The position numbers and the translations under genes were made by a program. A model generated the notes under the pieces. The model was not told the DNA's origin. It was given only the letters and a program-made list of their open reading frames with translations, and did not search any database. Below, piece by piece: positions 16,622 through 34,500 of a stretch of 40,319 nucleotides of DNA. Source of the stretch: Candidatus Bathyarchaeia archaeon (GTDB lineage Archaea; Thermoproteota; Bathyarchaeia; Bathyarchaeales; Bathycorpusculaceae). Every line of letters begins with the position of its first letter. The first letter of the stretch is position 1. Location of the stretch: positions 1 through 40,319 of the forward strand of contig JBBFKZ010000015.1 in NCBI GenBank assembly GCA_037481775.1, read 5' to 3'.

Positions 16622-16852
16622 AGGCGCGAGTGTGTTTTTGGCTTGTTAGTTTTTTATGGGTTTATTATTTCACAATTTTGTGTAACGTTTAAATGTTACA
16701 GTTCTTTATTTCTATCTTTAAAATTTGATTTCAAATATATATTGGTGATTGAATTTACCCAACAATACCTCGCCTCATTTGAAAATAATTGTCTATACCG
16801 TACTTTGTTTCCTTTTTGTAGGCTTTTACCACTTTGTTAAGGTGGAACAAGA

Positions 16853-17842
16853 ATGATTATGGAGTTTATCGAAGAAATATTGAAGTTAACGGTTCTTGCA
16901 GGATTAACGTTGGCGGGAATTTTGGTTATTCTTATATGGAAAAAGAATTTGGCAACTAGAGTAACTTACCTACGTTTTCTTATTCAAGTAGTCGCCATGG
17001 TCTCAGTTTTCTACTTGTTTACCTACCCTGTATGGCAACTTATTGTGTTAATTGTTATTCTGGTTTTGCCTCTTGTTTTGGGGCGTTTCTTCTGCGGCTG
17101 GCTTTGCCCGTTCGGTTTATACATGGATGCAATCACTCTAATTCGTAAAGGCCTCAAAATACGCTATCGAAATCTCCCAGATAAACTAAACAAGTTTCTA
17201 CACCAATTCCGCTATGTGCTGCTGCTCTTCTTTTTAATAATACCTGCCGTTCTCAACTTAATTGATCCGCCGCCTGCGGAGTCTCTTACGCTTATGACGC
17301 TAGTTTTAGCCGGTCCTTTTGAGCCGTGGCGAATCCTGCTTGGGCCTGTCATACCGCTTATTGTGCCTTGGAAGGGACCGTTGGAAATCAGTGGCGTATA
17401 TTTCAGCTATCCCTACGTTCAAGAAGTAATATACTATTCCAAATTCTTATCCATAGAAGTTTTCACTACCATTATGGCTTGGGTCTTCGTGGCTCTGACT
17501 GTTATTGGCTCATTCTTTCTGCGGCGCGTCTGGTGCCGATTTTGCCCAACAGGTTCCTCAATTGCCGTCATAAACAGGTTCAGAGGTTTTAAGTGGGCGC
17601 CTCTGCTTCATATTAATAAGGATGAAGTGAAATGCACTAAATGTGGAATCTGCAAACGCGTCTGCCCTGTCCAAGTCACAGATGTCTATGATCAGAAAGG
17701 CGGCAAAATTATGACTTCAATGTGCATGTTATGTACGCGATGTGTTGAAATGTGCCCTTATGAGGACTGTTTGAAAGTAAACTTTGGCCGAAAAACCGTG
17801 TTTAAGTCTCGAAATTGGCTAGAACCATCAAAAGTTGAGTGA
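16853..17842 (+). CDS. Membrane-bound polyferredoxin, NapH/MauN/NosR-like
   Basis: TM helices, two CxxxCP motifs (CGWLCP, WCRFCP) and two 4Fe-4S motifs (CTKCGICKRVCP, CMLCTRCVEMCP). Confidence 0.88.
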   Translation: MIMEFIEEILKLTVLAGLTLAGILVILIWKKNLATRVTYLRFLIQVVAMVSVFYLFTYPVWQLIVLIVILVLPLVLGRFFCGWLCPFGLYMDAITLIRKGLKIRYRNLPDKLNKFLHQFRYVLLLFFLIIPAVLNLIDPPPAESLTLMTLVLAGPFEPWRILLGPVIPLIVPWKGPLEISGVYFSYPYVQEVIYYSKFLSIEVFTTIMAWVFVALTVIGSFFLRRVWCRFCPTGSSIAVINRFRGFKWAPLLHINKDEVKCTKCGICKRVCPVQVTDVYDQKGGKIMTSMCMLCTRCVEMCPYEDCLKVNFGRKTVFKSRNWLEPSKVE

Positions 17843-19178
17843 GAACGCAATGAAAAACCCCGATGAAGAAAAGAAATACATGCTTGACATTTCCCCAAAG
17901 GAAATTGAAGATTTAAAAGCCACTATCAGAGCTATTTCCAAAAAGATAACTGCTGAATACATTGAAAGAATGCAAAAAACGGACAAAAATCGTCCCGAAT
18001 CCATGCGGTACTTCGATGAGATAGCAGATTTTGAGAAGCGAGAAAAGGAGCTCCTTGCAGCAAAAGAAAGCGGAAAAAAAGTCGTAGGCTACATGTGCTT
18101 GTTCGCGCCTATAGAGCTGATTCTAGCTGCGGATGCAATTCCAGTCCGCGTCAATTCTGGCTGGTATGATGCGGCGAAGCTTGGCGACCGGGTTGTGCCC
18201 GTTGAAGTTTGCCCGATGGTGCGGTCAACTATAGGCGCAAAAATGATCGGGTTGTCACCTTATCTTGAGCTAAGCGACGCTTTAATAAGCGGGTTAACCT
18301 GTGATGGCATGACTAAATTAAGCGAAATCCTAAGCGATTACAAGCCCGTCTGGACCATGGCGGTACCGCGGCTCAAGGATACCTCGCAATCTTTGGGCTT
18401 TTGGAGAGAGGAAATGAAGACTTTAATAAAGCATATCGAAGAATTAACGGGAAATAAAATAACTAGAAGCAAGCTGAAATCTGCGATAGAACTTACTCAG
18501 AGGGCAACAAAGGCTTTCCGCAGACTGCAGGAAATACGAAAGGGCAATCCCGTTATTATGGGACGAGATGCCATGCTGGTTAATCAAACATACATGTGGG
18601 ACGACATAAAGCGGTGGACTGAAAAGACGGAAGCATTATGCGCTGAGCTTGAAGAACGCGCTCGCCAGAAGAACTGGGCATGTCCGCCGGATACGCCGAG
18701 AGTTATGGTTACTGGCACGCCGATGATATGGCCGGACAATTGGAAGCTTCCGTCAATTATTGAGGAAGCTAATCCTCAGGGTGTTCTCGTTGCCGATGAG
18801 CTTTGCTCAAGCGAAAGAATTCTCTACGATCCCGTTGGTGTAGATGAATGGACGATGGATGACATGCTTAACGCCATAGGCGAGCGGTATATGATGGCGT
18901 CCACTTGCCCCTGCTTCACTTCCGCTGATGGAAACAAAGACCGAGTCAACTGGATATTGAACAAGGTTAAGGATTGGAAAGTCAGCGGCGTAATCTACTA
19001 TGTAGTCCGCGGCTGTATGCTCTACGCTATGGAGTACATGCGCGTCAAGAAAACTCTAGATCGCATGCGCGTTCCCGTTTATTATTTGGACACTGAATAC
19101 ACGCGGGAAGATGTTGGCCCGCTGAAAACAAGAGTTGAAGCCTTCTTGGAGATGCTTACCGCGAGAGTTGATATATAG
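17835..19178 (+). CDS. 2-hydroxyacyl-CoA dehydratase/benzoyl-CoA reductase superfamily catalytic subunit, double-cubane cluster protein (DCCP)-like
   Basis: GYMC88LFAPIELILAA, EVC126P, LTC156DG, ELC324, TC358PC, RGC394; C-terminal TEY...LKTRVEAFLE. Confidence 0.8.
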   Translation: MSENAMKNPDEEKKYMLDISPKEIEDLKATIRAISKKITAEYIERMQKTDKNRPESMRYFDEIADFEKREKELLAAKESGKKVVGYMCLFAPIELILAADAIPVRVNSGWYDAAKLGDRVVPVEVCPMVRSTIGAKMIGLSPYLELSDALISGLTCDGMTKLSEILSDYKPVWTMAVPRLKDTSQSLGFWREEMKTLIKHIEELTGNKITRSKLKSAIELTQRATKAFRRLQEIRKGNPVIMGRDAMLVNQTYMWDDIKRWTEKTEALCAELEERARQKNWACPPDTPRVMVTGTPMIWPDNWKLPSIIEEANPQGVLVADELCSSERILYDPVGVDEWTMDDMLNAIGERYMMASTCPCFTSADGNKDRVNWILNKVKDWKVSGVIYYVVRGCMLYAMEYMRVKKTLDRMRVPVYYLDTEYTREDVGPLKTRVEAFLEMLTARVDI

Positions 19179-19186
19179 AGGTGTAG

Positions 19187-19969
19187 TTGATGATAACAGC
19201 TGGAATAGACTTAGGCACTCAAAGCGTGAAAGTAGTCATCTTGAAAGACGGCACAGTAGTGTCCCGCGGCAAAGCTTTTTCCGGATTTGATCCGGCTAAA
19301 GCCGCTGAACAAGCCTTCGACGAAGCGCTGAAGCAAGCGGGCATTTCAAGCAGCGATGTGCTTCATGTTACTGCCACTGGTTCAGGCATGGACTTGGCAC
19401 CTAACGCTCACAGCACCGTCAGCATGATGGGCGCTGACGCAAAAGCGGGGGTTTACCTTTTTCCAACCGCGCGAACCGTGGTAGATGTGGGCGCTGAAGA
19501 AGCAAGAGCGGTGAAATGTGACAATAAAGGAATTATGGTGGACTTTGTGGTTAATGAGCGATGCGCGGCTGGCGCGGGTACCTTCATCGAGGCCATGGCC
19601 CGAGCCTTAGAGGTAAAATTAGAAGAGATGGGTCCGCTTTCACTTAAAGCCGAGCGCGCAAGCTCGATTAACGCTTCATGTGTTATCTTCGGAGAATCAG
19701 ACGTGGTTAGCTTAATTCATAGGCAAGAATCAAAACCCGAGATTGCAAGAGCCATATTTGATGCCATGGCTGACCGCGTCTCCTCCATGGTGCACAGGCT
19801 GGGAATAACTCCTGATGTTGTGCTGGTTGGCGGCGTCGCAAAAGATGTTGGTTTTGTCGCATCGTTAAAAAGGAAGCTTGGCATTGAGTTACTAATACCT
19901 GAACACCCCGAGTATGCTGGCGCTTTAGGCGCCGCGCTTATCGCTGTTAATCGCGCCAAAAAGGTGTAG
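19187..19969 (+). CDS. ATP-dependent electron-activating subunit, BzdP-like (BcrAD/BadFG/HgdC family)
   Basis: ASKHA motifs GIDLGT and VDVGAEE, ERCAAGAG, SCVIFGESDVVSL, GALGAAL; GAGGTG ribosome-binding site. Confidence 0.85.
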   Translation: MMITAGIDLGTQSVKVVILKDGTVVSRGKAFSGFDPAKAAEQAFDEALKQAGISSSDVLHVTATGSGMDLAPNAHSTVSMMGADAKAGVYLFPTARTVVDVGAEEARAVKCDNKGIMVDFVVNERCAAGAGTFIEAMARALEVKLEEMGPLSLKAERASSINASCVIFGESDVVSLIHRQESKPEIARAIFDAMADRVSSMVHRLGITPDVVLVGGVAKDVGFVASLKRKLGIELLIPEHPEYAGALGAALIAVNRAKKV

Positions 19970-19973
19970 AAAA

Positions 19974-20882
19974 ATGGAAGAAGCACCGAGAAAAGATGAT
20001 GTGGAATATTGGCGATGGCAGGAGTACCGTAGGGTTTTCTCGGAAAAGAAATGGCGAAACAAGGATATAATCACAGCAGGCATTGACGTCGGCTCAGTCG
20101 GCTCCAAAGCAGCTATAATGATTGACGGCGATGTCTACTCTTGGGGTGTAATGCGCACTGGCTCAAACAGTCCTGACAGCGCCAAAAAAGTGCTTAGCTG
20201 GGCTATGGAGGGCACCGGCCTGCGGCTTGATGACATTAAATACATAGTTGGCACAGGCTACGGCCGTGTCAACGTGCCTATGGCTAATAAGGCTATCACG
20301 GAAATTGCCTGTCATGCAAAAGGTGCGAACTACATCTGGGGGCCCAGCGTCCGAACTGTGCTGGACGTCGGCGGTCAAGACATAAAGGCCATTCGCTGCG
20401 ATGAAACAGGTAGAGTTGTCTCGTTCTTGATGAACGACAAGTGCGCGGCGGGCACGGGCAGAGGCATGGAAGTTTTCGCTGACTTGCTGAAAATCCCTAT
20501 TGAAAAGATAGGTGAAGTCTCGCTGAATGTGGAGGAGGAGCCGCCGCCTGTGAGTTGCACATGCGTGGCTTTCGCGAAAACTGAAGCCATGAGCCTACTG
20601 CGCAAGGGCTGGTCTAAAGAGAAAGTGTTAGCCGCTTATACACATGCGATGGCTATACGGATGAGCAATCTTGTCAAGCGTGTCGGCCTTGAAAGAGAGT
20701 TCGTAATCACTGGAGGGCAATCAAAAAACATCGGCATAGTCTCGAGGATAGAAAAGATACTTGGCGTCAAATGCCTTCCAATGCCTAATTGGCGGGAAAA
20801 CGGTTTGGATCCCATGATTGCCGGAGCCATCGGCGCTGCGCTGTTCGCTAAAGCGCTTTACGAGAAAGAACAGAAAAGCTGA
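19974..20882 (+). CDS. ATP-dependent electron-activating subunit, BzdQ-like (BcrAD/BadFG/HgdC family)
   Basis: N-terminal EYWRWQE extension, GIDVGSV, MRTGSNSPDSA, GTGYGR, TEIACHAKG, DVGGQD, MNDKCAAGTGRG. Confidence 0.85.
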   Translation: MEEAPRKDDVEYWRWQEYRRVFSEKKWRNKDIITAGIDVGSVGSKAAIMIDGDVYSWGVMRTGSNSPDSAKKVLSWAMEGTGLRLDDIKYIVGTGYGRVNVPMANKAITEIACHAKGANYIWGPSVRTVLDVGGQDIKAIRCDETGRVVSFLMNDKCAAGTGRGMEVFADLLKIPIEKIGEVSLNVEEEPPPVSCTCVAFAKTEAMSLLRKGWSKEKVLAAYTHAMAIRMSNLVKRVGLEREFVITGGQSKNIGIVSRIEKILGVKCLPMPNWRENGLDPMIAGAIGAALFAKALYEKEQKS

Positions 20883-20893
20883 GGTGACGGGCT

Positions 20894-21181
20894 TTTATCA
20901 CGCATTATGGTTACAGCGACGGCTCAGGCGAATATTATATTGTCATTGACTCTGACAAGTGTAGTGGTTGTGGTGATTGCGTGAAGGCTTGTCCGCAATC
21001 TGCCCTTGAACTGGCAACAATGCTGATTGACTTGGAGGACAAGACTGTGGCGGCGGTGACAGAGGAGCATCGGAGAAAGATAAAGTACACGTGCTCTCCA
21101 TGCAAGCCTGAGAGCGGAAAGGCGCCGTGCGTGTTAGCTTGTGCACAAGACGCGATTAAGTGCGTTTGGACTCCTCATTAA
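20894..21181 (+). CDS. 2[4Fe-4S] ferredoxin, BzdM-like; start codon unclear
   Basis: Frame extends upstream of the track ORF: (F)ITHYGYSDGSGEYYIVIDSDKCSGCGDCVKACP...KYTCSPCKP...CVLAC. GAGGTGA at 20881-20887. Confidence 0.85.
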   Translation, partial: FITHYGYSDGSGEYYIVIDSDKCSGCGDCVKACPQSALELATMLIDLEDKTVAAVTEEHRRKIKYTCSPCKPESGKAPCVLACAQDAIKCVWTPH

Positions 21182-21251
21182 AAGGATATGCATTGTTTAA
21201 ATTTAGAATGTATCTGCTCAGGAGCAGCTTTAGAGGTTGGATTGAATCAGA

Positions 21252-21758
21252 ATGGGAATTGCACTCGAACCAAAGAAACCATTAACTCCGAAGAAAGAAA
21301 TTTTTATTTCGCATGGGAAAGACACGAAACCTTTGAACGAATTGAAGGCTATGCTTATTGATTTTGGGCTGACGCCAGTTGTTCTTAGCGAGCAGCCTAG
21401 TGGGGGCAAAACGGTGATGGAGAAGCTTGAGGCTTACTCGGATGTTGGTTACGCGTTTGTTATTCTAACGCCAGACGATTTGGGTGGTTTTGTTGAGATG
21501 GGCAGCAAATGGTCAAGACCGGCAAGGCTCAGAAGGTTCTTGAAAACCGCTTATCCTCGCCCGCGACAGAACGTGGTTCTTGAGTTTGGGTATTTTGTCG
21601 GAAAACTTGGGCGTAGCAGAGTTTGTTGCTTGTTGAAAAAACCAGTTGAGCAGCCTTCTGACATGCAGGGCATTGTGTACTTAAGCTTCAAGGAGTCATT
21701 GGAAGAGATAAAAACTGGCATAATAAAGGAGCTTAAGGCAGCAGGCTACGAAATTTAA
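21252..21758 (+). CDS. Standalone TIR-like nucleotide-binding domain protein (CAP12/Pycsar-effector TIR family)
   Basis: IFISHGKD, EQPSGGKTVMEKLE, AFVILTPDD, RPRQNVVLEFGYF, PSDMQG. Confidence 0.88.
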   Translation: MGIALEPKKPLTPKKEIFISHGKDTKPLNELKAMLIDFGLTPVVLSEQPSGGKTVMEKLEAYSDVGYAFVILTPDDLGGFVEMGSKWSRPARLRRFLKTAYPRPRQNVVLEFGYFVGKLGRSRVCCLLKKPVEQPSDMQGIVYLSFKESLEEIKTGIIKELKAAGYEI

Positions 21759-22225
21759 GCAGAAGTGGCACTCAGATAGGCCGTTTTATCTGCATGCGCT
21801 ACATGTTTAGCTGGACTTTTTCATAAGTGCTGTTACATATTCAAAGATAGGTGGGCTCGGGGCTCTTTTTATCAGTTTTTCGCAGAAACAGCATTATCGC
21901 CGTATTAGTGTAGTATTGTAGGCGTTGAACGCCGTGTACATAGTGTGTCGTTAGATTATCGAATTCTTTTCGTTTTATTTCGATTATGTGCTATTTTACC
22001 ATCATATATTTAGATACAAATCGAACCAAAGAGCGCAGCTCGCAGCCTTCGTAATTTAGGGCTATCAAATTTGTTTTCTGTTTGTGTAGCTGGTGTAGTA
22101 GAAGCGTTGTGCATATTGGGAATACGTATGGTTATTGCTTTACTTGGATATGTTTTGAGAATTCGCTACGTTTATTTACGGTAAGCCTATATTGAATAGG
22201 CTGAAAATGAGAAGGGGCGCAACTG

Positions 22226-22777
22226 ATGTCCAAGAAGCCGCAATCCAAAGACGAAGCGTTAGAAGCGTTAGACTTTATAGTGAACGTACTCAAGGAACAT
22301 GAGAAGGACTTGGATAAGCTGATAAATGAGTTGGGCACGGTTGCATCATCGCTGGGTGAAACAGGGGAATTAAGCTCAAAGGTAGAGAAGATAGAGGAGA
22401 GAATAAACGGCTTACAAAACGAGATAAATAGTTTAATTAACTATTTGTCAACTTCTCCTCGTGAGGCGCCTGCGCCTTCTACTGCGCAAAAGCCTGCGGC
22501 GCCGGAAGCGCAGGTGTCTGTTATGCATGGTCCGCCTGTGATTTTGAGGTGTAAGCAGTGGGAGGATTTTCAGACTTTGGCTTGTCAGGCGCAGACCGTG
22601 TCTTTTATGGTTAAGGAAGCGGAGAAGACTTTTCAGGTTGATGCGCTTAAGGGTAACCAGATTGTTACGTATAGTGGCGAGTTTCCCAAGTTTGGGTCTC
22701 TTTTGAAGATGTGGTTGTCTAAGCAGTTGGATGTTTCTGAGCAGAAGATTTTGGAAGGCGTTTTGGCTATAGGTTAG
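22226..22777 (+). CDS. Hypothetical protein: N-terminal coiled coil, Pro/Ala linker, small C-terminal alpha/beta domain
   Basis: 183-aa ORF, heptad pattern over roughly residues 20-75, purine-rich ribosome-binding site upstream. Confidence 0.8.
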   Translation: MSKKPQSKDEALEALDFIVNVLKEHEKDLDKLINELGTVASSLGETGELSSKVEKIEERINGLQNEINSLINYLSTSPREAPAPSTAQKPAAPEAQVSVMHGPPVILRCKQWEDFQTLACQAQTVSFMVKEAEKTFQVDALKGNQIVTYSGEFPKFGSLLKMWLSKQLDVSEQKILEGVLAIG

Positions 22778-23017
22778 GCTTGTAGCTTATAGTTTATTTA
22801 TGATGCATAATGCTTTTATAAGCGTATAATATCTTAAGTCTTATGATGCAATTTGGAGGGCTAATAGAGGTTGAAGGCTAAACCAACAAGCCAACAGAAT
22901 TTTTTCCGTTCTCGAAGCCTTCTCCTTTCTCCTCGATGACGGATTGGCAGTTGGACAGCCAACAAACAATGACAACGCCCTCCAACCCGCATCGAACAAA
23001 CAAAAAGGCTGAAACCA

Positions 23018-23164
23018 ATGGATAAAGAAAAAACACTACAACGCGAATTCAGCGAAGCACTAATAAAATTCGAAAAAACAATGGAAGACCTATACCTACT
23101 CCAATACGTCTCAAAAGATCTGAAAAACTACAAAAAAATGATCAAACTAAAAAAATACGACTAA
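23018..23164 (+). CDS. Possible 48-aa Lys-rich small protein
   Basis: ATG...TAA: MDKEKTLQREFSEALIKFEKTMEDLYLLQYVSKDLKNYKKMIKLKKYD; below the ORF-track cutoff; looks helical. Confidence 0.45.
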   Translation: MDKEKTLQREFSEALIKFEKTMEDLYLLQYVSKDLKNYKKMIKLKKYD

Positions 23165-23316
23165 AAGCTCCCTCGCTCAAAGCCCACTTCCGCACACGAT
23201 AAACACATAATTAACACCCCGTGACTTTTAAAAGTCGAAAACCATTACGCTATCTAACAAAGCGGCTAACCCTTATAAGTTCTCAGACAAAATAAGCATG
23301 TCGAGGAAAATCTCGA

Positions 23317-24264
23317 ATGAACTTCGCCATTGAAACCATAGGCTTAACCAAAAGATATGGTTCACTAACCGCCGTAAATAAGCTAAACTTAAAAGTTAAG
23401 CGAAACACAATCCACGGTTTTCTCGGCCCCAACGGCGCTGGAAAAACCACAACCATAAAAATTCTCGTAGGCCTATTAAAACCAAACGAGGGCACAGTTA
23501 AAGTTCTCGGGCAGGAGGTACACGGCGACCAAGCAGACGCCCGATTAAGCATCGGCTATATGCCCGAGCTGCCCAAGTTTCCAAAGCATTTGAAGGGGTC
23601 TGAACTCTTAGACATTTATGGCGAAATGTATGGCCTGACTAAGCAGGAACGCAGAGAGCAAATCCCCAAACTGGTGGAACTCGTGGGGCTTAAAGGAAGA
23701 GAAAACGACCCGATAGGGAAATACAGTAAAGGTATGCAGCAACGAATAGGCATAGCGCAAGCGTTGCTAAATAACCCTGAACTCGTCATTTTAGACGAGC
23801 CCAGTCTCGGTTTAGACCCCCTCGGCATGGTGGAAGTAAGAGAACTTGTTAAAGCCATCGCTAAAGAAGACAGAACTGTTTTTCTTTCTTCACATCTGCT
23901 GTTTGAGGTTGAACAAGTCTGCACACATGTTACCATAATCAACCGCGGAGAAGCCTTAATCTCCGATACACTGCAGAACGTATTAAGCAAACTTTCGGGA
24001 CCCGCCACCTTACATGTGGAAGTAACTACGCTCTCTGAAGCAATTGTTAAGGCGGTAAAGAAGTTGCCCTTCGTCGCCGATGTGACACAGAACGATAACG
24101 CTTTAAGCATAGACTTGAAAACACTTGATGATGTACGACCGCAAGTTTCTCAAGCCATAACACAAGCCGGCGGCATCATAGTTTCCATGAATCTGCAGCG
24201 GCAGAATCTGGAGAGTGCCTTTATGAAACTTATCAGCAAGCAGCAAGGAGACGAAGCCCAATGA
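23317..24264 (+). CDS. ABC-2 type exporter ATP-binding subunit
   Basis: GPNGAGKTT, YSKGMQQR, ILDEP, SSH. Confidence 0.95.
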   Translation: MNFAIETIGLTKRYGSLTAVNKLNLKVKRNTIHGFLGPNGAGKTTTIKILVGLLKPNEGTVKVLGQEVHGDQADARLSIGYMPELPKFPKHLKGSELLDIYGEMYGLTKQERREQIPKLVELVGLKGRENDPIGKYSKGMQQRIGIAQALLNNPELVILDEPSLGLDPLGMVEVRELVKAIAKEDRTVFLSSHLLFEVEQVCTHVTIINRGEALISDTLQNVLSKLSGPATLHVEVTTLSEAIVKAVKKLPFVADVTQNDNALSIDLKTLDDVRPQVSQAITQAGGIIVSMNLQRQNLESAFMKLISKQQGDEAQ

Positions 24265-25232
24265 ACGCAAGTACACAAACGGCGAATAGAGCAAGCCCAA
24301 GCTGGTGGACTCGTTTCTGGGCAGTTGTGAAATACGAGATGTTGTGGAATATTCGAAAGAAAAAGTTCATAGGCCTAGTCATCGCCGCGTTTGCCTTAGT
24401 CACCGTGCAGTTGGCGTTGCCTGCCATTTTTGGCGTTGAGCAGAATCCAGATTTTGCAGCTACCTTTAGCGCTGGAAACCTTCTATTCTTTCTTTTCGCA
24501 ATCGTAACCGTCATGAACAGCATCTCAGGCGAATTTGAAAGCGGCACAATCGTCCCGTTGCTAACAAAACCCGTCTCCCGAACAATGGTTTTCCTTGGCA
24601 AACTATGCGCTGCTTTCATTATCCTCATGGTAACGTACGCAGTGCTTTTCACATACTCCACAATTGGCGGAATAATCGTGTACGGGCCACAAGAAAACCT
24701 TCACATGGTACCTCTCGCACTTATAGGAAACGTTATCAGTACCTTCATCTGGATTGCAATAGTTTTAGCCGCCGGCGCCATCTCAAAAAACTCCTTAATT
24801 GCTGCGCTCAGCGCCTTCAGCCTGTTCATCGCGTTTGGCTTCGCAACAGCAATTGTCTCCACCTTCTCTAACCAACCTGAAATACTCAATTATATCCCGG
24901 GAAGCGGCGTAACTGGAACACTGAATGTGCCCTCAAGAGGCGCAAACATTACAATCCAGAATATTACTCTATCATCAAATTCAATATCCACAGGCACGGA
25001 CAGCATAGGCTACAACCTTGTTAACTATGCGCTCTATCCATCAGCAACGGTTAACGTCACCAGAATGGACGTGTTCTCAACCAAGCCTGGGCAGCCCCCT
25101 CAAATAAGGCATCTCTACACGGAGCCACTTAGCCTTGTTGTAGCAAGATCTATAGCAGTAGCGTTTGCGTACATTTCTGTGTTTTTGTTTGTAGCGTGGT
25201 ACGCATTTAAACGGGCGCAAATACTAGAGTAA
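24261..25232 (+). CDS. ABC-2 type exporter permease
   Basis: SISGEFESGTIVPLLTKPVSR...FLGK motif, about 6 TM, ATGA overlap with the ATPase gene. Confidence 0.92.
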   Translation: MNASTQTANRASPSWWTRFWAVVKYEMLWNIRKKKFIGLVIAAFALVTVQLALPAIFGVEQNPDFAATFSAGNLLFFLFAIVTVMNSISGEFESGTIVPLLTKPVSRTMVFLGKLCAAFIILMVTYAVLFTYSTIGGIIVYGPQENLHMVPLALIGNVISTFIWIAIVLAAGAISKNSLIAALSAFSLFIAFGFATAIVSTFSNQPEILNYIPGSGVTGTLNVPSRGANITIQNITLSSNSISTGTDSIGYNLVNYALYPSATVNVTRMDVFSTKPGQPPQIRHLYTEPLSLVVARSIAVAFAYISVFLFVAWYAFKRAQILE

Positions 25233-29938: not shown

Positions 29939-30427
29939 ATGGAAACCTTCGCGGAAGAACCTCAGCAATGCACATTGCAAGACGAGAACCTGGATTTTTG
30001 GACCTTTATCAGGAAAGAATCCCTTAAATCCATTAAAACAATTGAAAACATGCTTCAAAATCTTGGACTTTCTAAAAATGAGATACAAGTATATTTGTAC
30101 CTTGCTCTTTACAAGGAAAGAAAAGCAAGCGAAATTTCTAAGGCACTAAATCTCCATAGAACTAATACTTACCAAATATTGCGAGATTTAGAGAAGAAAA
30201 GTCTAGTTTCTTCTACTATAGAGAAACCGCTAAAATTCATTGCTACTCCATTCGAAAAAGCCATAGATGTACTCATTGAAACCAAAAAGCTCATGTTACA
30301 AAAATTGGAAGAAAAAAAGGAAAACCTAATCTACATGTGGCTGTCGCTTCCTAAGCCTAGAATCGAAGGCCAGCAGAAGGAAGTTTTTCAAATACTTGAG
30401 GGAGAAGAGCAAATCACCTTAAAATAA
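29939..30427 (+). pseudogene. TrmB-family regulator, N-terminal wHTH and coiled coil only (3'-truncated)
   Basis: LGLSKNEIQVYLYL, ASEISKALNLHRTNTYQILRDLEKK, EKPLKF; stops right after FQILEGEEQITLK, where the effector domain normally begins. Confidence 0.75.
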
Positions 30428-31287
30428 CCCGAGCTGACAAAAGAATTCTAATAGGAGAAAAACTAACACGCGGTCTCGGTTGCGGTGGCTACCCTGAAAT
30501 AGGCGAAAAAGCATTACGAGAAACTGTAAACGAAGTCATCAACGAAGTCGCTAGTGCCAACATAATATTCTTAGTAGCTGGTCTCGGCGGAGGAACAGGA
30601 ACAGGCGCCATAATAGGCTTAGCTGAAGCGTTACGCGACAAATTTTCAGAATCAGGACTACCTCATCTAGTTGTAGGCGTCGTTACTCTACCCTTCGATG
30701 TTGAAACAGCCCGAATGTCGATCGCCAAAAAAGGCTTAGATCGACTGAAAGCAGCATGCGACACTGTCGTAGTCATCGATAACAACAGGCTCGTCAAAGT
30801 AGCAGGAAATTTACCCTTCAAAGAGGCCTTGGGCGTAGCTAATACTACAATAGGCAAATTCGTAAAGGGTATCACTGAAACAATCACGACTGCAAGCTTG
30901 ATCAACTTGGACTACGCTGATTTAAGAGCAATAATGTCAGGTGCAGGATTAGCTTCTATAGGCATAGGCGAAGGTTTTGGAGAAGGCAGAGTGGAGCAGG
31001 CTGTTGAAAAAGCATTAAACGATCGCCTTCTAGACATTGAAGATGTGACAAAAGCACGCGGCTTACTCATTCATGTTGCAGGTGGAGATGATTTAACACT
31101 GTTTGAGGTAAACCACGCCGCTGAGATTATTAAACGCTCGTTACCGCCAAAGGCAAAAATAATCTGGGGCGCAAGAGTTGACAAAGAGCTAAAAGGCTCT
31201 GTTTCCGTGATGGCTGTTGTGACTGGCGTAGAAAGTGCGTTCTTAAAGAAGCAAGAAAAACGTTTAGGTCCAATAAAACTCTGGTAA
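30409..31287 (+). pseudogene. ftsZ: Cell-division GTPase FtsZ, 5'-truncated
   Basis: Frame reads ANHLKITRADKRILIGEKLTRGLGCGGYPEIG...VAGLGGGTGTG...TLPF...VVIDNNRL...INLDYADLR...IWGA. An in-frame stop lies at 30397 and there is no GxGGxGxN N-terminus. Confidence 0.88.
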
Positions 31288-31515: not shown

Positions 31516-34500
31516 ATGGTTCAGAATCGTGATTTAATGTCTGAGGATGACTTCCTGTTAATTCGAGAACAATACGTTTCTCCGCTGTCACGCCGTATTG
31601 ACGATTGGAAATCCCGGCTAATAGATCTGTCGCGGCGCAACAATTTACTTTATTTTACACCTACTAAAAGGGGAACCCTTTTCGTTTCTCAGCCAAACAT
31701 GGAAACAATTTTCAACAGACTTGTTATACGAAAGCGAAAAATGGCTTTTTGGTATCCGCCTGACGAAGAAAGCTCTCAATCGCCGCTGCAATCCGCGCAT
31801 GTTTCATCTATTACTGAAAAAAACAAGCCAGCGGCAAATCAGCTGGTATGCAATGGAATGGGCAAAGCTGATCTTGAAAAGGTGCTTAAGAATCTATATC
31901 GGCGTTCGCTTTTGGACTATAGGGAACGAGGCGTACGGATATTACATGTTTCTTTTGGGATGTTAGTTTGGAAGGAAAAAGAAACATCCGAAGAAGTTCG
32001 CTCTCCTTTGATCCTTGTGCCGATTGAGTTAACTCAGGAATCAGTTAAGGAGCCCTTCTTTATTTCAGTTCCTCCCGTAGAGGAAGAAGCGATTTTGAAT
32101 CCCGCTTTACAAGTGAAACTTAAATCTGTCTTTAAAATCGAACTTCCACCTTTACCAGAATATTGGGAATACCAGAGTTTAGCACAATACTTTAGCGCTG
32201 TTACAAAACTTGCTACCGAACTTGGTTGGCGAGTAGAAACCACTGTGGTAATCGGGCTTTTCTCATTTCACAAACTAGTTATCTATAACGATCTTGACAT
32301 GAATGAGGCAGTAATAAAGCGGCATCCTTTAATCCGTGCTATCGCTGGAATTGAGAAAATACCGTTTACACCAAATTCTTTGCCTGAAGAAAAAGATGTC
32401 GACCTGATCCAACCTCCTGAAAAAACGTTTCAAGTTTTAGACGCGGACAGCAGTCAAAGAGTAGCAATTGAATATGCCTTGCGTGGCCAAAGCTTTGTAA
32501 TCCAAGGTCCTCCAGGTACAGGCAAAAGCCAAACGATAGCCAACATAATCGCTGAATGCATAGCTCACGGAAAATCTGTTCTATTCGTAAGCGACAAAAT
32601 AGCTGCTCTTGAAGTAGTCTATAAACGGTTACGCGAAGCGGGATTATCATCATTCTGTTTGGAGCTTCACAGCAGCAAGGCTAACAAACAGGAAGTTGTG
32701 GCTGAACTTAAACGTTGCCTTGATGAGCAGTTGGTTCCTCAAAAACTGCCTTCGGAGCACGACTTTAAAAAAATGGGTGAATTGAGAGAAAAATTAAACA
32801 ATTACGTAGCTATGCTTCACCAAAAAAGAACACCGTTACAGAAAAGCGTTTATGAAATATTGGGTGAACTTTCACGTTTAGAATGTGTACCTTTTATCCC
32901 CATTGAATTACCAAATATAGATAGCTTGACTCCCCAAGAGATGAACGAGTTAGAAGATTTGATGCGACAATTGAAAAATGTGTGGCAAGTAGTGGAAGAG
33001 ACAAGTTTTCCTTGGCGTGGTTATCTGGGAAACAATTACAATGTGGAGATTCGCTCGGAACTTTCAACACTTCTAGACAATACACTCATAACAATAGAGG
33101 CGCTTAGAGAAGAATCTGAAAATTTTGCAATTCAACTAGGACTAAATGCTCCTACCACATTTGATGAGATTAAATGGTTAATTGAGATTAGCATGTTTCT
33201 GTTGGAAAGTCCAAAACCTGAAGTAAGTTGGGTTCTTCATCCCGATCTTGACCAATTAATCTCTGAAGCAGAAACATACCAGTCCGCGATTAAATGGTGC
33301 AACATAACACGCAACCGTTTACTAGAGCGCTATAATCCAGATTTATTCAGTTTGGCGCTTACCAAATCCACAGAATTTGAGGAAGCTCTTTCAGCAATCA
33401 ACAGCTTACTCTTGCACTCAAATATCGAAGAAAGCGCGCTTCTTAAAAAAAGAAAAGAATTATTGGATTTTGCCAAGCAAACTGCAATTCTATCAGAAAA
33501 TTGGCGAGAGAAAGCATTGCAGCTTGCTTTGATGCTTGGTTTGCCAACAGAGAATCTTACACTTGCTCGAGTTAGACAACTATCCCGCGTTGCTCTTTTC
33601 TGCTTCTCAGAGAATAAACCTGAGATACATTGGCTGGATCAAGCTCATTTCCAGCGAGTAATAGAAACATTTCCGAAAATAAAAAAGATCTTTGAGGAAC
33701 ATAATACTTTGAAACTTAAGCTGGAGAAAACCTACACAGACGAAATTTTCAACATCGATCTTGATGGTCTCATAAAGCGCTATCGTGAACAGTACAATAG
33801 TTTCTTACGATGGTTCCACCCAAGTTTTTATCGAGATCAAAAGCAAATAGCTCTGTTAACGCATAACAGAAAAGTTCCCAAGTCTATTTTGCAAGATCTG
33901 CTTGACGCGCGCAGACTGAAAATGTTGGACGCTGAAATTGATACCTCAGCAGACGAGATCCAAAGAATATTCGGTCATTTTTATCAAGGTTTTAAGACAG
34001 ATCTGCAACGAATAGAAGAAGCAATAGAAAACACTTCTAAACTCTTCGAATTGTTAAATACATCAAGCATACCTGCGAACCTATCTTGGCTAGTTTCATA
34101 TGGATCTGATCCTCCACTTGCAATCAAACAGGTTGGTAACGAATTGCTAGATTCATTTGAAAAGTGGGATCAGCTTGTTAAAGAGTTAAGTGAGCTATTA
34201 CCCCTTTCACGTATGCCCAACTCGAATTTATCGCTATACGAGACGCCAATAGCAATGGTTCAAGAATGGGCAAGGCTGGTTGAAAAGCAACTTGCTTCTC
34301 TCTGCGAAATAACCGATGAAACCTTAAAAACAAACAAGGCTGAAGCGCCGCAAACCTACAAACAATTAATAGCTGACTTGAAAGATGCTGAAAACGTTAG
34401 AAAAAAAGAAGCCGAAATTCTCAGAGAAGCAGCGCGTCTTCAAGCCGTTTTTGGGTTCCGCTTCACAGGGCTAGAAACATGCTGGGAAGAAATTATCTCA

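What the first reader, a model, noticed from the sequence alone, without database searches (positions are those of the whole stretch)
16853..21181. Hybrid ATP-driven reductase operon: benzoyl-CoA-reductase-type activator module paired with a single double-cubane-type subunit and a membrane electron carrier
Seen: five tightly packed co-oriented genes encoding a NapH-like membrane polyferredoxin, one 447-aa catalytic subunit, two different ASKHA ATPases and a ferredoxin. The catalytic chain has six family-position Cys (88, 126, 156, 324, 358 or 360, 394). Established: class I benzoyl-CoA reductases use two ATPase subunits plus two catalytic subunits (BcrABCD, BzdNOPQ), with each dehydratase-like chain holding one three-Cys cubane. 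The double-cubane [8Fe-9S] protein DCCP holds two sulfur-bridged cubanes in one chain, uses its own single-gene ATPase and reduces small molecules such as acetylene in vitro. Inference: a BzdP/BzdQ/BzdM module drives a DCCP-like enzyme and links to the membrane via NapH. That would be a very-low-potential reductase of unknown substrate, likely to be auto-annotated as benzoyl-CoA reductase. No CoA ligase or ring-cleavage genes are in the window.
Basis: partly seen in the sequence, partly recalled or inferred. Interest (0 to 1): 0.82.

Follow-up and report, generated by a model that had tools for sequence, protein, structure and literature searches.

The report
Membrane-linked double-cubane reductase operon
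A conserved five-gene archaeal operon that databases label benzoyl-CoA reductase most likely encodes an ATP-powered iron-sulfur reductase of the double-cubane type with an unknown substrate, so it is weak evidence for aromatic-compound degradation.

Summary
The five co-oriented genes are real. They are conserved in Bathyarchaeia: Cat-ATPase1-ATPase2-ferredoxin occurs in 43 of 49 related loci, and the other 6 are cut by contig ends. A NapH-like gene lies directly upstream in 41 of 49.

The single HGD-D subunit is DCCP-like, not BzdN-, BcrC- or HadC-like. It scores 334.8 bits on NF040772 against at most 96 on the others, and 261 bits on PDB 6ENO against 86 on BzdN. It keeps all six double-cubane ligand cysteines. 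It sits in a peripheral clade just under the model's cut-off of 350 and lacks the seventh family cysteine.

ATPase2 passes the BzdQ model (380.6 bits, cut-off 380.2). ATPase1 is a deep paralog with a degenerate phosphate-2 motif and is not specifically BzdP-like.

The ferredoxin gene starts upstream of the stated coordinate, at a non-canonical codon.

Six cysteines therefore do not separate DCCP from BzdN. The "hybrid" looks more like an intermediate between DCCP and class I BCR.

NapH-like and DsbD_2 membrane genes recur beside this DCCP subfamily in several phyla.

Substrate and the role of the membrane link stay unknown. This is a new variant of a known kind.

The parts
16853..17842 (+). 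NapH/YccM-like integral membrane iron-sulfur protein (329 aa). About five TM helices. CX3CP at C81/C85, CX2CP at C228/C231, and a C-terminal 2x[4Fe-4S] domain at C261-C301. All Cys motifs are predicted cytoplasmic.
   Evidence: Pfam Fer4_5 53.8 bits plus Fer4 dicluster families. NCBIfam NapH 72.9 and 72.0 bits, far below the cut-offs of 234 and 213. Hydropathy, positive-inside counts and 12 Cys conserved in 40-41 of 41 orthologs. PDB matches cover the ferredoxin domain only. Nearest Atlas clusters are Fer4_5/YccM-like. A NapH-like hit lies directly upstream of the catalytic gene in 41 of 49 close loci (38 full length, 3 fragmented) and in 9 of 30 distant loci.
17850..19178 (+). Single HGD-D family subunit (442 aa from ATG 17850; ORF from TTG 17835). 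It is a DCCP-like double-cubane protein with six ligand Cys (88, 126, 156, 324, 358, 394 in 447-aa numbering). It lacks the seventh family Cys (N107) and has Arg105.
   Evidence: PF06050 312.9 bits. NF040772 334.8 bits (cut-off 350) against HadC 96.1, BzdN 91.0 and BcrC 61.0. PDB 7YYL_C/6ENO_A 261 bits against BzdN 86, HadC 71 and MbdN 52, with aligned ligand Cys. Cys conservation. Trees.
19187..19969 (+). ATPase1 (260 aa). An ASKHA 'archerase'-type activase that keeps both [4Fe-4S]-bridging Cys but has a degenerate phosphate-2 motif (DVGAEEAR instead of D[IV]GGQDxK).
   Evidence: PF01869 164.1 bits. TIGR00241 204.5, BcrD 164.9 (cut-off 312.85), BzdQ 135.5. PDB: HadI 180.7, MbdQ 168.6, DCCP-R 118.8, MbdP 106.5. 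The motif is diverged in 48 of 48 orthologs. 34% identical to ATPase2. Forms its own deep clade.
19974..20882 (+). ATPase2 (302 aa). A BzdQ-type ASKHA activase with canonical nucleotide motifs, both cluster Cys, and an N-terminal extension of about 31-36 residues (ExWRWxEY).
   Evidence: TIGR03192 BzdQ 380.6 bits (cut-off 380.2), matched from model position 8. The L035 ortholog scores 390.1, while 16 other activases score 109-207.6. The extension is conserved and is absent from ATPase1 and the single activases. Motifs canonical in 44 of 44. NCBI and JGI name orthologs 'bzd-type benzoyl-CoA reductase subunit Q'.
20897..21181 (+). 2x[4Fe-4S]-type ferredoxin (94 aa) with a long spacer between the two cluster motifs. 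Inferred non-canonical ATC start, 9 nt after GGTGA.
   Evidence: Open frame 20888-21181. Fer4 families match only the extended form. Present after ATPase2 in 43 of 43 close loci whose contig reaches that far. Both Cys motifs in 44 of 44. 12 of 44 orthologs have no ATG, GTG or TTG before the first motif.
22226..22777 (+). Conserved Bathyarchaeota-specific 183-aa hypothetical protein, downstream neighbour of the operon. It may or may not belong to the system.
   Evidence: Same family downstream in 19 of 49 close loci plus the window. No Pfam, NCBIfam or PADLOC family passing threshold. Atlas neighbours are Bathyarchaeota hypotheticals.

Best explanation
This is a conserved Bathyarchaeial operon for an ATP-driven, very-low-potential reductase of the double-cubane (DCCP) kind. 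It is not a benzoyl-CoA reductase.

Proposed flow:
1. The operon's own 2x[4Fe-4S] ferredoxin, or the cytoplasmic Fe-S domain of the NapH-like membrane protein, reduces the [4Fe-4S] cluster that bridges an asymmetric ATPase heterodimer. That dimer is the BzdQ-type ATPase2 plus the divergent ATPase1.
2. ATP hydrolysis drives the electron onto an [8Fe-9S] double-cubane cluster. The cluster is held by six cysteines of the single HGD-D subunit, probably a homodimer as in DCCP.
3. The cluster reduces a substrate that is still unknown and is probably not a CoA ester.

The NapH-like protein ties the system to the membrane. In many relatives a DsbD_2 protein is also present.

Shown here: family placement, cysteine and motif conservation, conserved gene order.

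Inferred: cluster type, dimer states, electron path, substrate class, and any physical contact with the membrane protein.
For: Catalytic subunit:
- NF040772 334.8 bits against at most 96.1 for HadC, BzdN and BcrC.
- Best solved relatives are DCCP 7YYL_C/6ENO_A at 261 bits, against BzdN at 86.
- The six ligand Cys are conserved in all 77 locus-derived relatives (one gap at C88) and in YjiM.
- The protein has 68 residues N-terminal to the model match, against 13 in YjiM. The DCCP alignment starts at DCCP residue 35. In DCCP this extension is reported to block the CoA channel (PMC7317905, section 7).

No partner subunit:
- No second HGD-D gene in the window.
- None among the neighbour families tested: the seven present in 5 or more of the 50 loci and seventeen further families present in 2 to 5 loci.
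- The cultivated Bathyarchaeum tardum has 'BcrACD' but no BcrB and no aromatic ligases, and benzoate inhibits its growth (PMC10477458, passages).

ATPases:
- Both keep the two cluster Cys, 45 of 45 rows.
- ATPase2 passes the BzdQ model.
- ATPase1 and ATPase2 are deep paralogs, each a 100* clade on a stem of about 1.2.

Synteny:
- Cat-ATPase1-ATPase2-Fd in 43 of 49 close loci; the other 6 are contig-truncated.
- NapH-like directly upstream in 41 of 49 close loci, and in 9 of 30 distant loci from Thermoplasmatota, Methanobacteriota, Omnitrophota, FCPU426, Desulfovibrionales and a second Bathyarchaeota paralog.

NCBI already names the L035 ortholog 'double-cubane-cluster-containing anaerobic reductase' next to a 'bzd-type subunit Q'.
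Against: - The window protein is below the NF040772 cut-off (334.8 against 350). Only 1 of the 8 other clade members scored passes, while classical DCCPs score 515-532.
- The seventh family Cys (DCCP Cys94) is absent in 0 of 48 clade members.
- Arg105 matches BzdN Arg53 rather than the DCCP glycine.
- The ATPases resemble HadI and MbdQ (169-193 bits) more than DCCP-R (119-137 bits).
- A heterodimeric ATPase on a homodimeric DCCP breaks the shared twofold axis seen in the DCCP:DCCP-R complex (PMC9351452, passages).
- 8 of 49 close loci lack a NapH-like gene next to the operon.
- The raw association of NapH adjacency with Arg105 got no support from phylogenetically independent pairs.
- No structure model, metal content, activity or expression data were available.
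Confidence: 0.6

Rival explanations
1. The double-cubane here is not the catalytic site. It is an ATP-charged electron store, as in BzdN. It would pass super-reduced electrons to the NapH-like membrane Fe-S protein, and in relatives to a DsbD_2 protein, which takes the place of BzdO. The chemistry would then happen at or across the membrane.
For: - BzdN's [8Fe-9S] serves electron transfer and storage, not catalysis (PMC11971306, passages).
- The clade lacks the near-cluster Cys94 equivalent (0 of 48) and has the BzdN-like Arg at position 105 in 47 of 48.
- It uses a BzdQ-type ATPase.
- NapH-like genes adjoin this DCCP subfamily in several phyla. DsbD_2 recurs in 27 of 49 close loci and in L048, L053 and L072.
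- All NapH-like Cys motifs are predicted to be on the cytoplasmic side.
Against: - No contact between the proteins was tested.
- 8 of 49 loci lack the NapH-like gene, and the window itself lacks DsbD_2.
- The long DCCP-type N-terminal extension and the overall DCCP similarity fit a self-contained enzyme.
- The independent-pairs test for NapH adjacency against Arg105 or the seventh Cys was uninformative.
Confidence: 0.2
2. It is a genuine Bzd-type aryl-CoA (benzoyl-CoA) reductase. The six-Cys subunit would act as BzdN, with a BzdO-like catalytic partner encoded elsewhere in the genome.
For: - ATPase2 passes the BzdQ equivalog model.
- The gene order (catalytic, two ATPases, ferredoxin) recalls bzdNOPQM; that order is recalled, not tested.
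- BzdN also has six Cys and an [8Fe-9S] cluster.
- Arg105 corresponds to BzdN Arg53.
- Several metagenome papers count such genes as bcr or bzd (PMC6472368, PMC12694404, PMC12869995; passages).
Against: - BzdN model 91.0 bits against a cut-off of 453.8, and BcrC 61.0 against 421. PDB BzdN 86 bits against DCCP 261.
- No BzdO/BcrB-like gene in the window or in any recurrent neighbour family of the 49 loci.
- B. tardum lacks BcrB and the ligases and is inhibited by benzoate.
- No CoA ligase or dienoyl-CoA pathway genes in the window.
- The long N-terminal extension is of the kind that blocks the CoA channel in DCCP.
Confidence: 0.07
3. The NapH-like gene, and DsbD_2 and the surface protein in relatives, are merely neighbours in a separate membrane or envelope function. 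The soluble four-gene reductase works alone, like the classical DCCP/DCCP-R pair.
For: - 8 of 49 close loci have the four soluble genes without an adjacent NapH-like gene.
- Classical DCCPs have no NapH-like neighbour: 0 of 17 in the Bacillota, Thermodesulfobacteriota and Actinomycetota group.
- The upstream CARDB-like surface protein has no redox motifs.
- The window lacks both CARDB and DsbD_2 yet keeps the operon.
Against: - NapH-like and catalytic genes are co-oriented with 0-30 nt gaps or overlaps in 41 of 49 close loci.
- The pairing recurs in 9 of 30 distant loci across at least five phyla.
- In 5 of the 8 loci without NapH, a DsbD_2 membrane protein takes the same position.
Confidence: 0.12

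Closest known systems
DCCP / DCCP-R of Carboxydothermus hydrogenoformans (PDB 6ENO, 7YYL)
   Same: Best solved relative of the catalytic subunit (261 bits). The same six cluster-ligand Cys. A long N-terminal extension. An ASKHA ATPase partner with a bridging [4Fe-4S]. Physiological substrate unknown.
   Different: - Only about 39% identity.
- NF040772 score 334.8 against 515-532 for classical members.
- The seventh Cys (Cys94) is replaced by Asn and Gly105 by Arg.
- Two paralogous ATPases instead of one homodimeric DCCP-R.
- A dedicated ferredoxin and a NapH-like membrane protein are encoded alongside.
Class I benzoyl-CoA reductase BzdNOPQ (Aromatoleum; PDB 8S02) and MbdNOPQ (9GAI)
   Same: A heterodimeric ATPase module with a BzdQ-type subunit (380.6 bits). 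A six-Cys [8Fe-9S]-type subunit. An Arg at the BzdN Arg53 position. One ATPase subunit with a deviating phosphate-2 motif: MbdP has GGQTMK, ATPase1 has GAEEAR.
   Different: - No BzdO-like catalytic partner.
- The catalytic chain scores only 91 bits on the BzdN model (cut-off 453.8).
- ATPase1 is not MbdP- or BcrD-like.
- No CoA ligase or downstream pathway genes.
- A membrane protein is attached.
YjiM / YjiL of Escherichia coli
   Same: A DCCP-family protein with an adjacent activase. Function unknown. PGAP calls it a double-cubane reductase.
   Different: YjiM is short: it lacks the N-terminal extension, with the model match starting at residue 14. It keeps the seventh Cys, scores 532 bits, has one ATPase and has no NapH-like neighbour.
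2-hydroxyacyl-CoA dehydratases HadBC/HadI and HgdAB/HgdC
   Same: The same HGD-D fold family. The ATPases are most similar in sequence to HadI (181-193 bits).
   Different: The dehydratase subunits lack Cys 88, 324 and 358. A Fusobacterium HadB/HadC-like pair was examined. HadC and HadB models score 96 and 23 bits. The dehydratases are heterodimeric CoA-ester enzymes.
NapH / NosR / YccM-type membrane polyferredoxins (Pfam Fer4_5)
   Same: TM helices carrying CX3CP-type motifs plus a cytoplasmic 2x[4Fe-4S] domain.
   Different: Far below the NapH and NosR model cut-offs. No nap, nos or quinone-related genes nearby. Pairing with a DCCP-like reductase did not turn up in my searches.

Membership tests
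DCCP (NCBIfam NF040772, double-cubane-cluster-containing anaerobic reductase) | Score at or above the curated cut-off (350 bits) | tested here: not met
   The window protein scores 334.8 bits. Of the 8 other clade members scored, only L035 passes (359.5); the rest score 298-341. The next-best family scores only 96 bits, so this is a peripheral subfamily rather than a different family.
DCCP (NCBIfam NF040772, double-cubane-cluster-containing anaerobic reductase) | Six Cys ligands of the [8Fe-9S] cluster at family positions | tested here: met
   C88, C126, C156, C324, C358 and C394 align with the 6ENO ligands and are conserved across 77 relatives and YjiM. BzdN shares this feature, so it does not discriminate.
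DCCP (NCBIfam NF040772, double-cubane-cluster-containing anaerobic reductase) | Seventh conserved Cys next to the cluster (Cys94 of DCCP; the 7-Cys motif) | tested here: not met
   Asn107 in the window. 0 of 48 clade members have Cys, against 22 of 24 other DCCP-like loci plus YjiM. 64 of 93 database representatives have it.
DCCP (NCBIfam NF040772, double-cubane-cluster-containing anaerobic reductase) | Actual [8Fe-9S] cluster, homodimer, ATP-dependent reduction of small molecules | not testable with these tools
   Needs protein chemistry.
DCCP (NCBIfam NF040772, double-cubane-cluster-containing anaerobic reductase) | One adjacent homodimeric ATPase (DCCP-R) | tested here: not met
   Two deep-paralog ATPases, 34% identical. 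DCCP-R is their weakest activase match in the PDB after MbdP.
BzdN / BcrC (class I benzoyl-CoA reductase electron-storage subunit) | Score above the TIGR03190 or TIGR02263 cut-offs, with an adjacent BzdO/BcrB partner | tested here: not met
   91.0 bits against 453.8, and 61.0 against 421.15. No second HGD-D gene in the window or in recurrent neighbour families.
BzdQ (TIGR03192) | Score at or above the curated cut-off, including the N-terminal extension | tested here: met
   ATPase2 scores 380.6 bits against 380.2, matched from model position 8. The pass is marginal. 16 other activases score 109-207.6.
BzdQ (TIGR03192) | Works in a bzdNOPQ benzoyl-CoA reductase | tested here: not met
   No bzdN or bzdO equivalents beside it. 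Function itself is not testable here.
BzdP / BcrD (delta subunit) | Score above the TIGR02261 cut-off, or closest solved relative MbdP | tested here: not met
   ATPase1 scores 164.9 bits against 312.85. MbdP 106.5 bits, against HadI 180.7 and MbdQ 168.6.
NapH (quinol dehydrogenase ferredoxin subunit) | Score above the NF007013 or TIGR02163 cut-offs; nap gene context | tested here: not met
   72.9 and 72.0 bits against 234 and 213. No nap genes in the window. Only the Fer4_5 plus dicluster architecture is shared.
BzdM-type ferredoxin | Specific similarity to BzdM | not testable with these tools
   No BzdM model or sequence was at hand. Only generic ferredoxin families match.

The most novel reading that the evidence does not exclude
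In this archaeal clade the ATP-charged double-cubane subunit is an electron accumulator, as in BzdN. It would inject super-reduced electrons into a NapH-like or DsbD_2 membrane module rather than reduce a soluble substrate itself. That would be an ATP-driven low-potential electron feed into a membrane redox relay, for chemistry at or beyond the membrane. It would also mark a living intermediate between DCCP and class I benzoyl-CoA reductase.
Probability: 0.2. Interest if true: 0.85.

Novelty: new variant of a known kind. Interest (0 to 1): 0.58.

Why it matters
1. Bathyarchaeia are among the most abundant sediment archaea. 'Benzoyl-CoA reductase' genes are repeatedly cited as evidence that they degrade aromatics (PMC6472368, PMC12694404, PMC12869995; passages). 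If those genes are this locus, the inference is unsound. I could not confirm that, because the supplements are closed. The locus has no BzdO/BcrB partner and its catalytic chain is DCCP-like.

2. The physiological role of double-cubane proteins is unknown. A conserved, membrane-linked subfamily in a now-cultivable lineage gives a new handle on it.

3. A single DCC subunit served by a Bzd-type heterodimeric ATPase fits the proposed evolution of BzdNO from a DCCP-like ancestor (PMC11971306). It suggests that the ATPase module diversified before, or independently of, the duplication of the catalytic subunit.

Tried and rejected
- Structure prediction of the catalytic subunit. The job failed. So there is no model, no Cys geometry and no fold search.
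- Complex prediction (NapH-like with the catalytic subunit) was not available.
- A tree against true BzdN/O, BcrB/C and BzdP/Q was not possible, because no such sequences could be fetched. Plasmid searches found only YjiM, HadBC-like genes and generic activases. I used curated HMM and PDB scores instead, plus trees rooted on a Fusobacterium HadC-like protein on a very long branch. The root is therefore unreliable.
- P0144 was tested as a stand-in for DCCP_Ch and is not one.
- Alignment A1 was too diverse for the locus scan, so A2 was used.
- Independent-pairs tests of NapH adjacency against Arg105 or the seventh Cys gave 6 pairs and p = 1, which is uninformative.
- Rfam found no RNA family in the window.
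- The bacterial promoter and terminator scan gave no more sites than shuffles.
- The Atlas gave only Bathyarchaeota hypotheticals for the 183-aa neighbour and generic Fer4_5 clusters for the NapH-like protein.
- The DsbD_2 relative has no PDB match and only a weak ArsG match (27 bits).
- PMC10134865 mentions double-cubane only in its reference list. PMC10418091 was marginal.
- The 2018 DCCP paper (PMC5866592) is not held. What I say of it comes from the 2020 review.
- A frameshift as the explanation for the ferredoxin's missing start was considered and rejected, because the N-terminal frame is conserved and 12 of 44 orthologs share the lack of a canonical start.

Full report
**What is in the window**

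The window is archaeal. It holds RadA, NFACT, FKBP26 and a glycerol-1-phosphate-dehydrogenase-type Fe-ADH. The best database relatives of the central gene are named Candidatus Bathyarchaeota or Bathyarchaeia, at 77-98% identity over the 120 best clusters listed.

On the + strand lie five tightly spaced ORFs:
- 16853-17842 (329 aa);
- 17835/17850-19178 (447/442 aa);
- 19187-19969 (260 aa);
- 19974-20882 (302 aa);
- a small Cys-rich ORF ending at 21181.

- Homologs of the second gene are 442-443 aa, which fits ATG 17850, 7 nt after the upstream stop.
- The fifth ORF as given (20981-21181) begins after the first three Cys of its first cluster motif and matches no Pfam family. The frame is open from 20888. 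From 20897 the 94-aa product carries CxxCxxCxxxCP and CxxCx8CxxxC and matches Fer4 families.

The ferredoxin N-terminus (I-T-H-Y-G-Y-S-D-G-S-G-E-Y-Y) is conserved in relatives. Yet 12 of 44 orthologs, the window included, have no ATG, GTG or TTG between the upstream stop and the first motif. They carry ATC, ATT, ATA or similar about 9 nt after a GGTGA. A non-canonical start is therefore more likely than a frameshift.

**The catalytic subunit**

- Pfam places it in HGD-D (312.9 bits).
- Among curated NCBIfam models it scores 334.8 bits on NF040772 (double-cubane reductase; cut-off 350). It scores 96.1 on HadC, 91.0 on BzdN, 61.0 on BcrC, 29.3 on BzdO and 22.6 on HadB.
- Against all PDB chains the best matches are DCCP 7YYL_C and 6ENO_A (261 bits). 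BzdN 8S02_B follows at 86, HadC 3O3M_B at 71 and MbdN 9G87_B at 52.
- In the printed alignment, Cys 88, 126, 156, 324, 358 and 394 coincide with cysteines of DCCP.

These six are conserved in 47 of 48 (one gap) to 48 of 48 close relatives. They are also conserved in 5 of 5 members of a sister clade, 24 of 24 other DCCP-like loci and E. coli YjiM. A Fusobacterium HadB/HadC-like pair lacks Cys 88, 324 and 358. C358 is the invariant member of the CPC pair; C360 varies among representatives.

**A peripheral DCCP subfamily**

Classical DCCP-family proteins score 515-532 bits on NF040772: L060, L073 and YjiM. The Bathyarchaeial clade scores 298-359.5. Only L035 of the 8 other members tested passes, and the window protein fails by 15 bits.

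The seventh cysteine of the published 7-Cys motif is Asn107 in the window. In DCCP this is Cys94, next to the cluster (PMC7317905, section 7 read in full). It is Cys in 0 of 48 clade members (Asn 32, Gly 8, Ser 7). It is Cys in 1 of 5 sister-clade members, in 22 of 24 other DCCP-like loci, and in YjiM. Among 93 database representatives at 26-46% identity it is present in 64, so its loss is not unique to this clade.

Two residues upstream, Arg105 (47 of 48) replaces the Gly of most classical members (17 of 24). By alignment it corresponds to Arg53 of BzdN, which contacts the distal sub-cluster (PMC11971306, passages).

The protein has 68 residues N-terminal to the model match, against 13 in YjiM. 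The DCCP alignment begins at DCCP residue 35. In DCCP that extension is reported to fill the CoA funnel. That a CoA ester is therefore unlikely here is an inference; I could not model the structure.

**The background has moved**

The 2025 BzdNO structure shows otherwise:
- BzdN carries an [8Fe-9S] double-cubane on six Cys (36/73/100/263/293/327), acting as an electron transfer and storage cofactor.
- BzdO carries the catalytic [4Fe-4S]-OH2 cluster.
- The authors regard homodimeric DCCPs as the archetype from which BzdNO arose by duplication (PMC11971306, passages).

Six cysteines therefore do not distinguish DCCP from BzdN. The distinction rests on overall similarity and on the absence of a BzdO partner.

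**The ATPases**

Both are BcrAD_BadFG/ASKHA activases. Both keep the two cysteine columns conserved in all 45 activases aligned, consistent with a bridging [4Fe-4S]. They are 34% identical. In a 45-row tree each forms its own clade (SH-aLRT 100, stems about 1.2), and the two clades are not sisters. They are deep paralogs, not a recent duplication.

ATPase2:
- It scores 380.6 bits on the BzdQ equivalog TIGR03192 (cut-off 380.2), matched from model position 8.
- The Bathyarchaeum ortholog (L035) scores 390.1.
- Sixteen other activases score 109-207.6. This set includes ATPase1, YjiL, a Fusobacterium HgdC-like protein, Azoarcus KH32C activases, and the ATPases of the distant loci.
- Its N-terminal extension of about 31-36 residues (ExWRWxEY) is conserved in the clade. 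ATPase1 and the single activases lack it.
- The pass is marginal. In the PDB, ATPase2 is no closer to MbdQ (192 bits) than to HadI (193).

ATPase1:
- It is not specifically BzdP- or BcrD-like. It scores 164.9 bits on BcrD against a cut-off of 312.85, and MbdP 106.5 against HadI 180.7.
- Its phosphate-2 motif reads D[VI]GAEEAR-like in 48 of 48 orthologs.
- ATPase2 (44 of 44) and 10 of 12 reference or single activases keep D[IV]GGQDxK.
- The first ATPase of the two Thermoplasmatota pairs reads GGQG.R, and MbdP reads GGQTMK.
- The motif name is recalled.

An asymmetric heterodimer is the natural reading. On a homodimeric DCCP it would break the shared twofold axis described for DCCP:DCCP-R (PMC9351452, passages).

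**Conservation of the locus**

One scan of species-representative genomes returned 79 loci. Of these, 49 have 65-90% identity to the catalytic protein, and almost all are titled Bathyarchaeota, Bathyarchaeia or Thermoproteota.

- Cat-ATPase1-ATPase2-Fd occurs in 43 of 49. The other six contigs end inside or before ATPase2 (L002, L005, L010, L021, L028, L036).
- A NapH-like hit lies directly upstream on the same strand in 41 of 49. It is a full-length ORF in 38 and fragmented in L022, L034 and L039.
- In 5 of the 8 loci without it (L012, L019, L021, L027, L031), a DsbD_2 (PF13386) membrane protein occupies that position.
- DsbD_2 is present in 27 of 49 loci overall, usually as DsbD_2-NapH-Cat.

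Further recurrent neighbours:
- an N-anchored, sequon-rich CARDB-like surface protein (31 loci);
- a CDF cation-efflux protein (13 loci);
- a 183-aa hypothetical (19 loci plus the window, at 22226-22777);
- a molybdopterin-oxidoreductase-domain protein (4 loci).

None of the neighbour families tested is an HGD-D protein. That covers the seven families present in 5 or more of the 50 loci and seventeen further families present in 2 to 5 loci.

The window and its nearest relative L001 lack CARDB and DsbD_2. The window is colinear with L001 over 16678-21196 and 22091-24395. It has about 730 extra bases carrying a TIR gene between the ferredoxin and the 183-aa gene.

**Beyond Bathyarchaeia**

In trees (83 rows quick; 44 rows careful):
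- The Bathyarchaeial clade is fully supported (100/100).
- Its sister, at moderate support (SH-aLRT 90; 91/77), is a clade of 5 Thermoplasmatota and Methanobacteriota loci. All five have an adjacent NapH-like gene, and two have two ATPases.
- Classical DCCPs (Bacillota, Thermodesulfobacteriota, Actinomycetota and YjiM) form a separate clade (99/97), with one ATPase at most per DCCP gene and no NapH-like neighbour.

NapH-like genes also adjoin DCCP-like genes in Omnitrophota (L052), FCPU426 (L065), Desulfovibrionales (L072) and a second Bathyarchaeota paralog (L055). That makes 9 of 30 distant loci in all. DsbD_2 recurs in L072, L053 and L048.

In raw counts, NapH adjacency goes with Arg105. 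It is R in 8 of 9 adjacent distant loci. The 20 non-adjacent ones have G in 17 and R in 3. Phylogenetically independent pairs gave no test (6 pairs, p = 1), so this is a clade-level pattern only. The outgroup branch is very long, so the root and the direction of change are not established.

**The membrane protein**

- It has about five hydrophobic segments.
- CX3CP (C81/C85) and CX2CP (C228/C231) follow TM3 and TM5, on Lys/Arg-rich sides.
- A 2x[4Fe-4S] domain spans C261-C301.
- 12 Cys are conserved in 40-41 of 41 orthologs.
- By the positive-inside rule all Fe-S motifs face the cytoplasm, where the reductase is. This is inferred.
- It is NapH-like only in architecture: 72-73 bits against cut-offs of 213-234. 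Only its ferredoxin domain matches solved structures.
- Whether it feeds electrons in or takes them out is open.

**How it most likely works**

Shown: family placements, ligand and motif conservation, operon conservation.

Inferred: the ferredoxin and/or the NapH-like domain reduce the ATPase-bridging cluster. ATP hydrolysis by an asymmetric ATPase1/ATPase2 dimer pushes the electron onto an [8Fe-9S] cluster of a probably homodimeric subunit. That cluster reduces a small, non-CoA substrate (confidence 0.6).

The main rival (0.2) is that the double-cubane is an electron store, as in BzdN. It would hand electrons to the NapH-like or DsbD_2 module.

A true benzoyl-CoA reductase with a remote BzdO (0.07) is disfavoured by the scores and by the missing partner. 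It is also disfavoured by the cultivated Bathyarchaeum tardum. That organism has three adjacent 'BcrACD' genes but no BcrB and no aromatic ligases, and benzoate inhibits its growth (PMC10477458, passages). L035 is from the same genus by name. That its locus is the paper's cluster is my inference, since the supplement is closed.

**Annotation and literature**

- JGI names the catalytic protein 'benzoyl-CoA reductase/2-hydroxyglutaryl-CoA dehydratase subunit BcrC/BadD/HgdB' and ATPase2 'bzd-type benzoyl-CoA reductase Q subunit'.
[quoted passage not shown] In L035 it already places 'double-cubane-cluster-containing anaerobic reductase' next to 'benzoyl-CoA reductase, bzd-type, subunit Q'.
- Papers count class I bcr/bzd genes in Bathyarchaeota and Thermoplasmata MAGs as evidence of aromatic degradation. 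One calls the use of the ATP-consuming enzyme by strict anaerobes 'surprising' (PMC6472368; PMC12694404; PMC12869995; passages only, supplements closed).
- NF040772 was built by Haft, who linked classical double-cubane proteins to selenium and a putative organometallic locus (preprint 10.1101/2022.07.06.499078, passages).
- I found no paper describing a DCCP-like protein with a Bzd-type ATPase pair or a NapH-like partner. The searches were: double-cubane + ATPase; double-cubane/DCCP/8Fe-9S; double-cubane + archaeon; bzdQ + Bathyarchae; class I BCR + cryo-EM; BzdNOPQ + structure. The library lacks most subscription journals.

**Verdict**

The finding is real and conserved. It is best filed as a new variant of the DCCP kind: six Cys, a Bzd-type heterodimeric ATPase, its own ferredoxin, and a membrane link. 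Interest is moderate to high (0.58), because the substrate and the role of the membrane link remain unknown. Structure and complex predictions could not be run.

Noticed in passing
window 20888-21181: The operon's ferredoxin gene has no ATG, GTG or TTG upstream of its first cluster motif. 12 of 44 orthologs share this and carry ATC, ATT, ATA or similar about 9 nt after a GGTGA. This suggests near-cognate (AUC/AUU/AUA) initiation in Bathyarchaeia. ORF callers will truncate or miss the gene.
   Followed up: partly
window 21252-21758: A 168-aa TIR-domain gene (Pfam CAP12/Pycsar TIR 108.5 bits; PADLOC candidate system PDC-S35 186 bits). It sits in a segment of about 730 bp that is absent from the closest relative L001, inserted between the ferredoxin gene and the conserved 183-aa gene.
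   Followed up: partly
window 31516-37188: A 1890-aa DUF4011/AAA_11/AAA_12/MTES_1575 nuclease/DUF3320 protein. It matches PADLOC PDC-S37 (1506 bits) and Hhe (580 bits) and is a likely defence helicase-nuclease.
   Followed up: partly
window 30400-31287: An FtsZ-like frame of 295 codons from stop to stop. The first common start codon lies at 30715, leaving only the FtsZ_C domain. The tubulin signature is present upstream, but the N-terminal part of a normal FtsZ is missing. It may be a truncated paralog, a pseudogene or an unusual start.
   Followed up: partly
L007 363-6971 and similar stretches of 20-30 related loci: In most Bathyarchaeial relatives the operon is preceded by a CDF cation-efflux gene (13 loci), an N-anchored sequon-rich CARDB-like surface protein (31 loci) and a DsbD_2 membrane protein (27 loci). 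Four loci add a molybdopterin-oxidoreductase-domain gene downstream. The window has lost or never had these.
   Followed up: partly
L031 (DATHCJ010000043.1): This contig is titled Candidatus Limnocylindrales bacterium (Chloroflexota), yet its operon nests inside the Bathyarchaeia clade at 71% identity. This points to mis-binning or transfer.
   Followed up: no
L075 3879-5096, L077 9009-10217, L078 9105-10271: Syntrophobacteraceae-type loci carry a second, about 30%-identical HGD-D paralog beside the classical DCCP and its single ATPase. It was not characterised.
   Followed up: no
L080 (Azoarcus sp. KH32C plasmid pAZKH) 5124-9315: An activase, an activase fused to a DCCP-like domain (685 aa; NF040772 221.8 bits) and a further 414-aa HGD-D protein form a three-gene cluster beside an AraC regulator and a YfhL ferredoxin.
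   Followed up: no
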